DNA of 64,000 bases from the NCBI RefSeq assembly GCF_033153115.1, contig NW_026889774.1:21576001-21640000 (forward strand). Direction: 5' to 3'. Below are positions 20,607 through 61,451 of this stretch, piece by piece; the first letter of the stretch is position 1, and every line of letters begins with the position of its first letter. The notes under the pieces were generated by a model. The model was not told the origin of the DNA, searched no databases, and saw only the letters and a program-made list of their open reading frames with translations. The position numbers and the translations under genes are program-made. The DNA comes from Saccostrea echinata. Lineage: Eukaryota.

Positions 20607-21014
20607 TGTTAAGAATGTAATATGTTCTAAATTTTGTTTGTGTGTCTTAATTCTTTTTTAAAGTATTGCTGCAGATGTTCGGACCCCCCCCCCCCCTTTA
20701 AAATTCTCATTCGTATGCTAATTATGTTATTTTAGTTTGTTTATGAATTAAAATCAATTGTAATTAAGTGCGATTATTAATTTTGAAATTATTTTTTGAA
20801 CGAAGCTGTTGTGTTTAGAGTTCCTGATTTTCGATGGCTTATTTGCATGCGGTGTGAAGTGTCTTTTTTTCCGGCTCATCGTCAAGTTTCCTTTTTTTTC
20901 TGTGAAGATTAGTTAAATTATGCAACATTTTTTTTAATTTTCATGCAACCTCATTACATTTGATCGCCAGCTTATATTCTATTTGAAGAACATCGACTTG
21001 ATCTTCACTTAACA

Positions 21015-23911
21015 ATGCTTCTCCTATTTGGATTTACGTCATGGACTTTGTGGATGACGTTTTTGGTTACAGCCCATGGAGAGGGGTACACTAATGGAAT
21101 AACTTGCCAGGGTATTGACCGCTAACCTGTGGACTGGTATATATAACTTCTTACATATTTTCTTAAGTGTCTTTCCTAAAGAATATTCCTAAACTTTAAA
21201 AATTTTATATACGAGATGATAACTTTTGAAATTACCTTAATGCATTGGAAAGGTGACTTTCAGTATCCTTATTTGAAAATAATTTTTCATCAAAATGCTA
21301 TTCCTCATACATTTTCCTCGGATTTCATTAAAAGTAATCCACCTCAAGTCAAGAAAGATAAGAAACATTACTAGTTTTGGAACTTTTTAAATAGTGTTTT
21401 TGTTGCAAGTATCGGATATAGGCTCAGACCAGTAGAGCTTCAGTCTCATCAGAGAATTCCTTTTTTTTCTTTCCTAATTTTGAAAATAGACATTTAAGTT
21501 AATTTCAGTTTTAACCTACTGTGAACACAGACCAAATTATATGTTTGGTAGACAATGAATACTACATGTACTTGTATTTCGTTTCATAATATTTGATTAT
21601 AATGTTGGGTCCTGGCCGTTTTAGGTTTATTGTTTACAAAACTCCCCAGGATCCCCAAGACAAAAACAAGATGATATCTGAGGGCGTGGCCTTCTATTAT
21701 ATGGACTCCCATCGACCTGTAATGACCCTTTCTCCCACCCCGATAGACAAGGATGGACATGCCCTTTACAACACACTCCAACAGATCTATCTGAATGTAT
21801 GCAATCTTTCTTATCTCTTAAAAGCATATTGTCTCTAAAAATGCTCGTTTTTATTACATTCTTTATAAACACTTTTTTAAAAAAGTTTTTTAAATCATAG
21901 TGGCAGATTGAAACTTCGATAAAGTAGAAAAATGAAATGTGCTCTAGATTGAATAGCCATGACAATATGTACGCGTAAAATGCAAGAACAATTGGTCCTT
22001 ATCTTTAAGTAAGTATAAATGGGCTTCCAGGTAAAATTATATTATCCACTCTTGTAAAACTACCATCTCTAGTATATTTTTAGTTTCTTTCTTCAGTACT
22101 TCATGTTGGAATATGGCATGTATAATGACGAACCACCGAGGAGTTCCAACAAAACTTGGAAAGAGAAAAATGAGTTTGGTCAAACCAAAGGTAAACATAT
22201 GCCATACAAGATGAAGCTTTTGTCTTTCTTTTTGCGGTTCGAATGGGACGTTAAACAGCATACAATCAATCAAACAATGTTTTTGCTGTTTTTTTTAAAC
22301 ATATCTGAAATAGTTGTGAAAATCTAAGATGAAATCAACTATCCATTATAGGTGTATATGCATTTGATAAGCAGACAGGATTTTGGTTGATCTCCAGTAT
22401 TCCCGGGTTTCCCCCACACAAAAATAAGGGATATGCATTTAACAAAGAAGCGCAGCGGAACGGTCACATGCTTGTCTGTGTCACTTTAAATACTCAGGAG
22501 CTGGTGAACGTCTGTGAGTAATTTTATTCTGTGATTTAAGTCTTGGCATTGTTCTCCTTATTCTAAGGGACACCCTATTGAAAAAAAATTTTTTTTTTTG
22601 TTGATATTATAAGACTGTCGACATATTTTGCAGATAAAATATTCAAAATAATAAGACCTCAAATTCACGATGCAAAAAGACATGAAGCGCGAATGCCACC
22701 ACTTCAACCCTCAAACAAGTCTTTGGTATTACGCATATATACCCACGAAAACATGGAACTGAAGTGTTTAGCCAAAGGCTCATTATATGAGAAAGGTTAG
22801 AAAATTTAAAAAAAAAAAACTATTCAGAATTTCCTTATCACGCGTTAGATAATCAGGAAGTAATGACAGATGGATAATAGTGCGTTTAATAGATTTGTTC
22901 TGATAATTTTGTGGGGGGGGGGGGGTTCTAGACCTGTATGATTCTTTGGTTGCTCCGAGACTATCAAACAGTGTCTTGGTCCAGTCCTTTCAGACAGACT
23001 CTGGGATCCCATCTTCCTGCTCTTCAGAGTATAAGGTTGATTCAATCTTACATGATCTTTGTGTGTGTGTTTGTGTGTTTTGTATGTTTGTGACTCTGTG
23101 TGTGTTCCACGTGTATGCACTCATTAATTGTATTTACATGAACAAAATATACAACTTTTGGTGATATACTTGCATTACATGAATTATTTCAGTTCTAAAA
23201 ATATGAATATTCTGACAACCACATCTTATCCCCAAAAAAGGAGTGGGGGAGGGATGAAATTCCCTACTTAATTTCCCTAGCTATAATTTCGTTGGTTAGA
23301 GAGAATACAAGTAATGCAATTTTGTTTTCGGTTCCTATTTAAATGACTAGAACTAAACCATAAACATTAGAAGAAGAAATTTTTGATCGTATTTGTTCAT
23401 ATAATACAGTTTTCCTAATTACATGTACTTGAATATAGTTTCTGAATTATCTTTATTGTGTACGTATGAATAGGTGATGAATGTATCCAAAATAAAGTTC
23501 CCGGATACCAGTATCTACTTGTCTGGTAAAAGAGATCACGCCAAGTGGGCAGTGTCCGAGAAGTTGAGGAGATGGGTGTGTGTTGGAGACCTTGACTGAG
23601 TGGTAAACAAGTTCTCTCTTCATTCTCTTTACGAATATAGTTTCAAAAATCCAAGATATAGCAGTGGGAAGTCTGAAATAGTTATTGTAGATCAAAGAAA
23701 GGGAATACCTATTTCATATCCTCTTCTTCGTTTGATTTCGTTTTATTTTTATTTTCTCGGTAAGTTTTTTTTTAAATATACTCTGAAATATACGTTCTTT
23801 TCTGATTTATAGACTTCAGCCCTCAAGAGAGGGGGAGGAGCGTTGTGTATGGTCAACTACACGGCTTGGAAGGCGTTTCATAGCATCATAAACTCTGCTG
23901 ACAAATGTTAA
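21015..23911 (+). pseudogene. DNase II-like gene 2, nonsense-disrupted paralog of gene 5
   Basis: Exons 21015-21136, 21625-21796, 22097-22190, 22352-22513, 22634-22795, 22932-23035, 23474-23602, 23813-23911. In-frame TAA at 21123-21125 (CAA in gene 5) and TGA at 23597-23599 (CGA in gene 5). Confidence 0.9.
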
Positions 23912-24299
23912 CTTGAAATCACTGTGTTATGTTTCAGCTTCTTTCGATGAAAAAAATACGATATGTTTTTATATATGTATTTTTATGTCTGTTAATGTTT
24001 TTATAACGTTTCCATGCAAGACATGGATTTGAATTACTATTTGATCTTCATGATTATCTGCAGAGCTTATATTGCTGGTATTTCTAGTATATCGGATCGG
24101 AGGAAAATGCTTTCAATTCTGAATAAATTGGTTTCAAAGGACACCGCTGTTGTGATAGTTCATTATAACCCTAACTGTATTTTTTTTTCCTTTTCAAATG
24201 ACAAGTTCCAAGGCTCTATGTTTTACATTCTTACACTATATGACATTTTCCTGATTTAAGATTCCTCAGTTTTCAACTTATCGTGCTTTATCTTCCAAA

Positions 24300-59263: not shown

Positions 59264-59676
59264 TAGGACTGTGTCAATATATCGAATATTCAATACTTAT
59301 CGATATTCAGGAATGTATCGTATCGAAAAAATAACTTCCAATACGTATCGGACAGGCAGTTTTCCTTATAATTCTGTCAAAATGTTGGGAATTTCAGTTA
59401 CCAAAGATTATTTTTAACTGTTTTGAATTAAAACTGGTCAATAATGAAATAAACATTAAGGAGATAGCACATCTTAAATAACTATTACAAAATACATAGA
59501 CAACTATATTTCAAAATGTTATGTTAGACTCACCCAGTTTTTATCAAATTTATGCATTAAATGTCATTTACAAGACATTTTTGAAAGACTTAATAAATAA
59601 TCCAATATATCGCATATCGCTTTATAAAATATCGTATCGTATCGTATCGAAATATTTTGCTCAATACACAGCCCTA
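59264..59676. mobile_element. hAT-type MITE
   Basis: TIR TAGG(A/G)CTGTGT, perfect 8-bp TSD ATTTGAAC (59256-59263, 59677-59684), (ATCGT)n subterminal repeats. Confidence 0.9.
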
Positions 59677-61451
59677 ATTTGAACATATTTTATTATGTAC
59701 TGAAACATAAATGGATTGGGCAGCAGGCATAGCCTATATAAGTCCTCTCCACTTTAATGTTTTACATTAATGCCTGTACACATATAGCATTTATTTTCCC
59801 AGAGGACATATTTAACATAACAGATCCAGATATATATGACCCAAAGCGAAGTCCTCGACGCCATTATTCACGTGTCACTTTGGTACCACATAAAATTTTC
59901 CCGATTTCAACGGTAAAAGGACAAAAGTTCCGATTCTTTGTAAAGTCTTCGATTTTTGGAAAGGGTGAGAACAGGCCAATTTTCATAATATAAGACAATT
60001 ATTTTTTTTTATTCAAAAAAATTGAAAATTTTAATTTTGTTAAAGATTTGTATGATGGACTTGTTGCACCTGAAATGAGGGAATCTCTTTACGTGCATAC
60101 ATGGCATCCAAACCTGAATTCAACTTGTAAAATGAAATTTAACTTAAAGGTTTGCATATTATTCATATATATACAAGTATTACAGTTATTCAAATTCTAG
60201 AATGAGAGTCTCACGTTTTGGGACAACGAAACACAAGCTTTAAAGCAATCAACTATTCTACTGAATTAATGTATTGCAGGTTATGAAGATTGAAGTAATC
60301 AAGTTTTCTAATGACATAGAGTTTAAGTCAAACACTGATCATTCAAAATGGACTGTATCTAAAGACAATTTCTGGGCGTGTGTTGGAGACATTAACAGAG
60401 CGGTAATTCTTTTCAGCATGTTTTGCCTACATTGTCTTAAAAATTATATAGATTTAAACATGATTGATCAAGACTAGTATAAAATTAGATACTGAAAGAA
60501 TTCAAGAATTGAATCACTGCGATTTGCAAGCATTTGACCAAGTAAATGAATCTGACCATAAATGTTCGGGAAAAAAAAAACTTCAGGTAAGCTGTCACTT
60601 CAAGTTTGATATGACTTATTGATTCCTTTTGGTATCTTTCACAGACATCCCAGTTCAAGAGAGGTGGCGGAACAATGTGTTTATCCAGTGACTCCGTATG
60701 GAACGCTTTTAACTCCCTAATCAAATCTGTGCAGAACTGTCCAAAAACATGTATAGAATCATTTGATTTGTCTTAATACATGTAATCATTTCACTGTTTA
60801 AAACGGCATTGGGATTGATGCGTGTAATCTTTTTTTCTGAATCTTTAAAAGTGAAAAAGGGTGTTTATCTCCGAGAGGCATTTTGAAACCAACTTCGAGG
60901 ATAAAATTTTGCATGATGGCTACACGGAGGGCTAGTGAAGAAATGAATGTTTGATCTTAATCGGGAAGAGTAAAGATAGTGTCGAATTTGACAAAAATAT
61001 TGTCCTGATCTTGCTCTTGCACAGAGCTATTAGAAGTTGTACACATGTAGTGCACTAAACTTGCAGGGTTAAAATCTCTCATGCTACTGTGGATAAATGT
61101 ACCGTAACTTCATACTAAGGATGGTAATCAGTGTGCAACCGATGAACCGGTTACTCGGTCAGAACGATGGTATCGCTAACCGATGAATAGGTTACTCGGT
61201 CAGAACGATGGCAATCGTTTGCAAATGGTGTAATCGGTTTACACTCAAACAAATTTTAATATGTGTATAATTGAACTCAATTATTTCATCAGCATATTAA
61301 TTTGAAATTCAATTTTAAAAGCTTTAAAAGTTAATGTTAACTAGTGTATTCAAATCTTATAAATCAATTTGGGGATTGAGATCGTTGGGGTAAAAGGTCA
61401 GAGTATATCTTTTATATGTGATGATGATGATGACAATACAGAATAAATATG

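What the first reader, a model, noticed from the sequence alone, without database searches (positions are those of the whole stretch)
20720..61446. Segmental duplication with reciprocal gene loss
Block A (~20720-29670; genes 2+3) and block B (~46748-61446+; genes 5+6) are colinear through introns, minisatellites and intergenic DNA. In A, gene 2 carries two nonsense codons and gene 3 is intact. In B, gene 5 is intact and gene 6 lost its signal-peptide exon. Exactly one conventional copy of each type survives, so both blocks are needed to keep both types. Block-specific insertions (SINEs, HINE, hAT MITE, retrozyme) mostly expanded B.
Basis: seen in the sequence. Interest (0 to 1): 0.7.

Follow-up and report, generated by a model that had tools for sequence, protein, structure and literature searches.

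The report
Oyster DNase II array with pseudoenzyme
An old two-gene duplication inside a rock oyster's row of six DNA-digesting (DNase II) genes; the 'reciprocal loss' is likely recent damage that other oysters partly lack, and one duplicated gene belongs to an oyster lineage that has mostly lost a catalytic histidine and likely no longer cuts DNA.

Summary
The duplication is real: blocks A (20713-29670) and B (46740-61446) are colinear, 82% identical outside exons, and flank a unique gene (g4) whose halves sit in order across the gap, so they are not haplotypes. All six genes are DNase II; g1, g3 and g5 equal RefSeq Saccostrea echinata proteins. The lesions are confirmed: two stops in g2, a 96-bp exon-1 deletion in g6. 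Both pairs show purifying selection (dN/dS 0.34, 0.33), so the lesions are likely recent and did not preserve the blocks. In public transcript contigs, one sample makes a spliced g2 mRNA without the exon-7 stop. Another has a g2 exon-1 contig that appears to lack the exon-1 stop, plus a g5/g2 mosaic mRNA. The g6 deletion could not be tested. This oyster-restricted clade lacks that His in 9 of 10 sequences (3 of 196 elsewhere), keeps both lysines and the fold, and is likely a DNA-binding pseudoenzyme. No activity assay exists. Verdict: ordinary birth-and-death array with one moderately interesting, apparently undescribed lineage.

The parts
10975..17366 (+). g1, DNase II, 8 exons, both HxK motifs; outside the duplication
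   Evidence: 100% identical to RefSeq S. echinata protein P0020
20713..29670 (+). Block A of the duplication (g2 + g3)
21015..23911 (+). g2, type-X DNase II, 8 exons; stops at 21123-21125 and 23597-23599; Gln codon at the first catalytic His (22181-22183)
   Evidence: RefSeq annotates only a 129-aa piece (P0007)
25888..28990 (+). g3, type-Y DNase II, open frame, both HxK motifs, spliced contigs in 4 of 4 runs
27436..27735 (-). A-only tRNA-derived SINE with 13-bp target duplication
31128..42091 (+). g4, single-copy DNase II between the blocks; exons 1-3 before and 4-8 after the N gap at 36113-36292
   Evidence: RefSeq model P0044 also joins both sides
46740..61446 (+). Block B of the duplication (g5 + g6), expanded by insertions
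47118..50176 (+). g5, type-X DNase II, open frame, Gln127 at the first catalytic His (codon 48531-48533), Asp313 for the conserved Asn; spliced g5-type contigs in 4 of 4 runs
53172..53771 (.). B-only nested SINE pair with 10-bp target duplication
54788..54793 (+). Remnant ATGATC of g6 exon 1; junction of the 96-bp deletion
55519..60776 (+). g6 exons 2-8, type-Y DNase II, open frame, both HxK motifs, no signal-peptide exon
56203..56652 (+). B-only element with 108-bp direct repeats and two hammerhead-like cores (56243, 56586); retrozyme-like
   Evidence: no Rfam hammerhead hit
57249..58340 (.). B-only element with 166-bp tandem units (HINE-like; name recalled)
59264..59676 (.). B-only MITE with terminal inverted repeats and 8-bp target duplication

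Best explanation
Two neighbouring DNase II genes (types X and Y) were duplicated as one 9-kb block within a six-gene oyster array, all four copies likely stayed functional for most of the time since, and the stops in g2 and the deletion in g6 are likely recent null alleles rather than a fixed reciprocal loss. Shown: colinearity, 15-20% intron divergence, dN/dS near 0.33, the lesions, a spliced g2 transcript, and the missing first catalytic His in g2, g5 and most of their orthologs. Inferred: origin by unequal crossing-over or a similar repair event near the time Saccostrea species split; later sequence exchange between g2 and g5; absence of the exon-7 stop in one sample (from unitig ends). Predicted: type-X proteins are secreted or lysosomal pseudo-DNases that keep the fold and both lysines, bind DNA and cut poorly or not at all, while g1, g3 and g4 supply the activity. 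The g6 deletion may be fixed or polymorphic.
For: Not haplotypes: intron p-distance 0.145 (g2/g5) and 0.203 (g3/g6) against 0-3 differences in each listed 143-190 nt g3 piece of other samples; unique g4 lies after A and before B, with its exons in order across the gap. Selection: dN/dS 0.34 (345 codons, Fisher P=2e-6) and 0.33 (308 codons, P=6e-8); g6 exons 2-8 have no stop or frameshift, against P(0 stops)=0.018 if neutral throughout; S. cucullata Y matches g6 at 18 and g3 at 16-17 of the differing sites, so g6 is not accelerated. g2 stop not fixed: run X1 holds a 420-nt spliced exon 5-6-7 contig with 2, 1 and 0 differences from g2, ending with one unaligned base at 23597, exactly where the g5 contig ends; predicted unitig length is 420-421 if both genes share that base and 477 with the assembly's stop allele. 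Run X4 holds a g2-type exon-1 contig whose alignment breaks off at 21122, one base before the stop. Exchange: X4's 1193-nt contig is g5-like in exons 4-7 but differs from g2 by 4 letters and no gap over exon 8 and 3' UTR, where the assembly's g5 differs by 40 mismatches and 13 gaps; X introns are closer than Y introns (14.7 vs 20.0%, P=7e-5). Pseudoenzyme: Gln127 aligns to the His of GHTKG in PDB 5i3e; both His are essential in human DNase II (PMC5449587, section 15); His absent in 9 of 10 X rows versus 3 of 196 others, second His replaced by Arg in the 5 Crassostrea-type rows, conserved Trp and Gln lost in 10 of 10, Asn in 8 of 10, both Lys kept in 10 of 10; model pLDDT 88, TM 0.74 to 5i3e.
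Against: No DNA reads of the assembled animal or a population were laid, so allele frequencies and read depth are unknown. The stop-free state is read from contig ends, not printed letters; the exon-1 case rests on one contig of depth 2.9. One search hid 54 letter rows and 255 pieces, and the runs' species labels are coded. No contig could be assigned to g6 with confidence. Pairwise dN/dS averages both branches; g2 has more private amino-acid changes than g5 (24 vs 14, P=0.14) and its two stops alone fit long neutrality (P(<=2)=0.36). The S. cucullata X protein keeps the His. Every oyster copy inspected, including presumed active g1 and g3, lacks the His of the WLxHS motif, so oyster enzymes may tolerate changes that mammalian ones do not. 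No assay exists.
Confidence: 0.7

Rival explanations
1. Fixed reciprocal gene loss: g2 and g6 are dead in the species and both blocks are kept because each holds the only working copy of one type.
For: True of this assembled haplotype. No contig was assigned to g6 with confidence (tables cut). g2 has more private changes than g5.
Against: A spliced g2 contig lacks the exon-7 stop; dN/dS near 0.33 in both pairs; g6 exons 2-8 undamaged.
Confidence: 0.1
2. Loss in progress: g6 is fixed dead or nearly so, g2 null alleles are rising, and the array is on its way to the reciprocal state.
For: Two independent stops on one g2 haplotype; g6 deletion removes the signal peptide and the first conserved Cys.
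Against: No frequency data; a second, non-g3 type-Y spliced contig (depth 2.8, run X1) suggests another Y gene is transcribed, though it does not match g6 at all checked sites.
Confidence: 0.3
3. Assembly artefact: two haplotypes scaffolded in tandem across the gap at 36.1 kb.
For: A 180-base N gap lies between the blocks; read depth could not be checked.
Against: 15-20% intron divergence with about ten block-specific insertions; g4 flanks A on the right and B on the left; run X1 holds g2-type and two g5-type sequences together (the sample may be pooled).
Confidence: 0.03
4. Type-X proteins remain nucleases with low or altered activity (for example nicking or RNA), not pseudoenzymes.
For: His294 and both Lys remain in g5; the S. 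cucullata ortholog has the His; all oyster copies already deviate at another conserved His.
Against: Crassostrea/Magallana-type orthologs lack both catalytic His; a Trichinella DNase II-like protein with replaced His had no activity in two assays (PMC10249883, passages).
Confidence: 0.25

Closest known systems
DNase II family (PF03265; human DNase II alpha, Burkholderia 5i3e)
   Same: Pfam match of 7 of 7 exons tested, fold, hydrophobic N-terminus, two HxK positions.
   Different: Six tandem copies; type X lacks the first His; all oyster copies inspected lack the WLxHS His.
Trichinella spiralis DNase II-like expansion (TsDNase II-7)
   Same: Expanded DNase II family with replaced catalytic His; one member shown inactive (PMC10249883, passages).
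   Different: About 125 genes in a parasite, His to Lys/Ser; here one ortholog lineage in free-living oysters across four genera, His to Gln/Leu/Ile, not assayed.
Birth-and-death evolution of tandem arrays with gene conversion; bivalve structural polymorphism
   Same: Block duplication, purifying selection, null alleles, mosaic alleles, lineage-specific expansion (several g4-type proteins in Magallana gigas). Concept recalled; bivalve presence-absence papers seen as listings only.
   Different: Nothing mechanistically new.
Reciprocal gene loss after duplication (Lynch and Force model; recalled)
   Same: Complementary inactivation on this haplotype.
   Different: The model needs fixed losses and usually unlinked copies; here the blocks are 17 kb apart and at least one lesion is not fixed.
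Plancitoxin-1 (starfish toxin; NCBI label 'plancitoxin-1-like')
   Same: Same protein family, hence the automatic label.
   Different: No evidence of toxin function; the label is shared by ordinary mollusc DNase II proteins.

Membership tests
Segmental duplication | Colinear similarity through non-coding DNA over more than 1 kb | tested here: met
   7701 columns, non-coding identity 81.5%; below the 90% often used for recent duplications (recalled)
Segmental duplication | Both copies on one chromosome (full read depth, spanning reads) | not testable with these tools
   No genome held, no DNA run holds the stretch; indirect support from divergence and g4 order
Fixed reciprocal gene loss | Complementary copies inactivated | tested here: met
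   In this assembly
Fixed reciprocal gene loss | g2 inactivation fixed in the species | tested here: not met
   Exon-7 stop absent from a g2 contig in run X1; exon-1 stop probably absent in X4; the two were not seen on one molecule
Fixed reciprocal gene loss | g6 inactivation fixed in the species | tested here: inconclusive
   No contig assigned to g6 with confidence
DNase II family | PF03265 domain and PLD-like DNase II fold | tested here: met
Active DNase II (for g2/g5) | First HxK motif His | tested here: not met
   Gln127 in g5 and g2
Active DNase II (for g2/g5) | Second HxK motif | tested here: met
   DHAKW, His294; Arg in Crassostrea-type orthologs
Active DNase II (for g2/g5) | Acid endonuclease activity | not testable with these tools
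   needs assay
Retrozyme (56203-56652) | Terminal direct repeats holding a hammerhead ribozyme | tested here: inconclusive
   Repeats and two degenerate cores present; no Rfam hammerhead hit

The most novel reading that the evidence does not exclude
Oysters of four genera keep a dedicated, transcribed, secreted pseudo-DNase II that binds nucleic acid without cutting it (a DNA carrier, sensor or brake on its active neighbours), with catalytic residues lost stepwise and regained or retained in one Saccostrea species; in S. echinata its two copies still recombine and segregate for null alleles.
Probability: 0.45. Interest if true: 0.55.

Novelty: new variant of a known kind. Interest (0 to 1): 0.36.

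Why it matters
The duplication itself is ordinary and mainly warns against reading 'gene loss' from one oyster haplotype. The type-X lineage matters more: inactive DNase II-like proteins are documented in the parasite Trichinella, and a conserved one in farmed filter-feeders would give a natural series (His/His, Gln/His, Leu/His, Ile/Arg) for asking what DNase II folds do without catalysis, for example in handling ingested or extracellular DNA.

Tried and rejected
Own genome not held, so no look beyond the window. No RNA holder on record was listed; the runs laid are 'RNA?' by guess, though their joints fall on GT..AG exon junctions. Contig depths were not used to rank expression. Flank searches found no homology left of 20713/46740 or right of 29670/61446; a LINE-like insertion starts near 61490, so a further g4-like copy past the window is not excluded. 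Timing relative to the S. echinata/S. cucullata split is unresolved: X fork open, Y fork 87/63, site patterns mixed (34 chosen rows). A replacement first exon for g6 was not found; a new in-frame ATG early in g6 exon 2 was judged unlikely to give a folded protein, since it skips the first core strand. No type-Y ortholog outside Saccostrea appeared, weak evidence given the word-based search. Target duplications were unconvincing for five B insertions. PMC6230719 passages gave nothing on catalysis. Earlier scan findings: none in three look-ups. Paper searches listed no paper on oyster DNase II arrays or His loss (20 of 40, 13 of 13, 3 of 3 listed; titles and abstract starts only; open-licence library); no assembly paper among 20 of 23 listed. 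Supplements of oyster omics papers were not searched.
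Full report
What the window is. Six + strand genes of eight exons lie in a row between 10975 and 60776. Seven of seven exons tested match Pfam DNase_II. My models of g1, g3 and g5 are 100% identical to RefSeq Saccostrea echinata proteins P0020, P0010 and P0011, which fixes the species and checks the exon calls. NCBI labels several of them 'plancitoxin-1-like', a label shared by ordinary mollusc DNase II proteins.

The observation. Blocks A (20713-29670) and B (46740-61446) align over 7701 columns at 83.6% identity, 81.5% outside exons. g2 has stops at 21123 and 23597. g6 lacks 96 bp after its ATG, with an ATC microhomology at the junction; 83 coding bases and the donor are gone, and no replacement exon was found. 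Exons 2-8 of g6 are open.

Not two haplotypes. Introns differ by 14.5% (g2/g5) and 20.3% (g3/g6), whereas the listed g3 pieces from other samples differ from the assembly by 0-3 letters in 143-190. g4 is single, follows A and precedes B, and has exons 1-3 before and 4-8 after the gap. Read depth could not be checked.

The lesions are likely recent. dN/dS is 0.34 for g2/g5 and 0.33 for g3/g6, at dS 0.20 and 0.29. A g6 neutral along its whole branch would have no stop with probability 0.018, and the S. cucullata Y protein is equally close to g3 and g6. Against this, g2's two stops alone are compatible with long neutrality (P=0.36) and g2 has more private changes than g5 (24 vs 14, P=0.14). On balance the blocks were kept as four working genes, not by complementary loss.

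At least one lesion is not fixed. I laid 4 of the 8 listed runs (3 samples, 2 studies, contigs only) on 20900-27430. g5-type and g3 spliced contigs occur in all four. Run X1 also has a 420-nt spliced g2 contig (2, 1, 0 differences in exons 5-7) that ends with one unaligned base at 23597, as the g5 contig does. With 31-letter words two paralogs merge 30 bases after their last difference. The predicted length is 420-421 if both share the base at 23597 and 477 with the stop allele. This g2 transcript therefore lacks the exon-7 stop. In X4 a g2-type exon-1 contig (depth 2.9) stops aligning at 21122 with two letters left, which suggests the exon-1 stop is absent too; this is weaker, and the two were not seen on one molecule. 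No contig could be assigned to g6; 54 letter rows and 255 pieces were not shown.

The copies likely still exchange sequence. X4's 1193-nt contig is g5-like in exons 4-7, but over exon 8 and the 3' UTR it differs from g2 by 4 letters and no gap, where the assembly's g5 differs by 40 mismatches and 13 gaps. In the assembly, X introns are closer than Y introns (P=7e-5), with a 123-base identical run at exon 2. Gene conversion or unequal crossing-over fits; which one cannot be told.

g5 and g2 read GQTKG where DNase II has GHTKG; Gln127 aligns with the first catalytic His of the Burkholderia structure. Both histidines are essential in the human enzyme, and an H295 mutant still binds DNA (PMC5449587, section 15 and passages); sources differ on which His is the nucleophile (PMC5449587; PMC11430429, passages). 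g2/g5 and their orthologs form a clade with 100/100 support and a long stem, represented by a single 50% cluster among 1.84 billion proteins (690 bits, next 261). In a census of 206 rows (fetched proteins of 300-450 aa, P0044 dropped, five models added) the first His is missing in 9 of 10 X rows (seven distinct genes; Gln in Saccostrea, Leu in Ostrea edulis, Ile in Crassostrea virginica and unnamed relatives) and in 3 of 196 others. The five Ile rows also have Arg for the second His, as does a partial Magallana gigas protein. Both lysines stay, and the g5 model keeps the fold (pLDDT 88, TM 0.74 to 5i3e). The exception is the S. cucullata protein, which has His. A precedent exists in Trichinella, where a His-replaced member had no activity (PMC10249883, passages; family size also in PMC4148230, passages).

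Mechanism. A two-gene block was copied past g4, at about the time Saccostrea species split (unresolved). Both copies stayed under selection, collected different transposons, exchanged tracts, and now carry null alleles, two of which happen to be complementary in the assembled haplotype. Type X most likely works as a non-cutting DNA-binding protein; this is a prediction from residues, not an assay.

Novelty and verdict. The duplication is an ordinary case of birth-and-death in a tandem array. The oyster pseudo-DNase II lineage is a new variant of a known kind; three searches listed no paper on it, within an open-licence library and without supplements. Interest 0.36; 0.55 if binding without cutting is shown.

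Noticed in passing
window 33450-33570 and about 35751-35793: g4 exon 3 (with its HxK motif) ends in a weak donor GTCTTC; the RefSeq model P0044 uses another exon without the motif, so g4 may be mis-annotated or compromised here.
   Followed up: no
all six genes: Every oyster DNase II inspected lacks the His of the WLxHS motif, which I take to be pig His132 (mapping recalled; its importance seen only as a reference title in PMC11430429); 169 of 196 non-X rows have it.
   Followed up: partly
window 22634-22795 vs 48935-49096: Exon 5 differs at 20 of 54 codons between g2 and g5 (pN 0.173, pS 0.144) while exon 2 has no amino-acid change; possible diversifying selection next to a converted tract.
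   Followed up: partly
window 26274-27121 (run X1): A depth-2.8 spliced type-Y contig that is not g3 and does not match g6 at all checked sites: a divergent g6 allele or a third Y gene.
   Followed up: no
P0001 (S. cucullata): One gene model fuses g1, X and Y types in that order and lacks Y's exon 1; this may be the model's artefact or a hint that the exon-1 loss is older.
   Followed up: no
window 27105-27110 (run X2): A g3 allele appears to have an in-frame 3-base deletion just before the first HxK motif.
   Followed up: no
window 34493-35446, 37811-40064, 50401-50620: Fragments of a reverse-transcriptase retroelement (Penelope-like by recall) in g4 introns, one with nested SINE and 166-bp satellite; its 3' piece recurs behind g5.
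   Followed up: no
window 1027-2031 (-): Actin coding exon upstream of the array.
   Followed up: no
window 61490-63100 (-): LINE-like reverse-transcriptase fragment that ends the detectable homology of block B.
   Followed up: no
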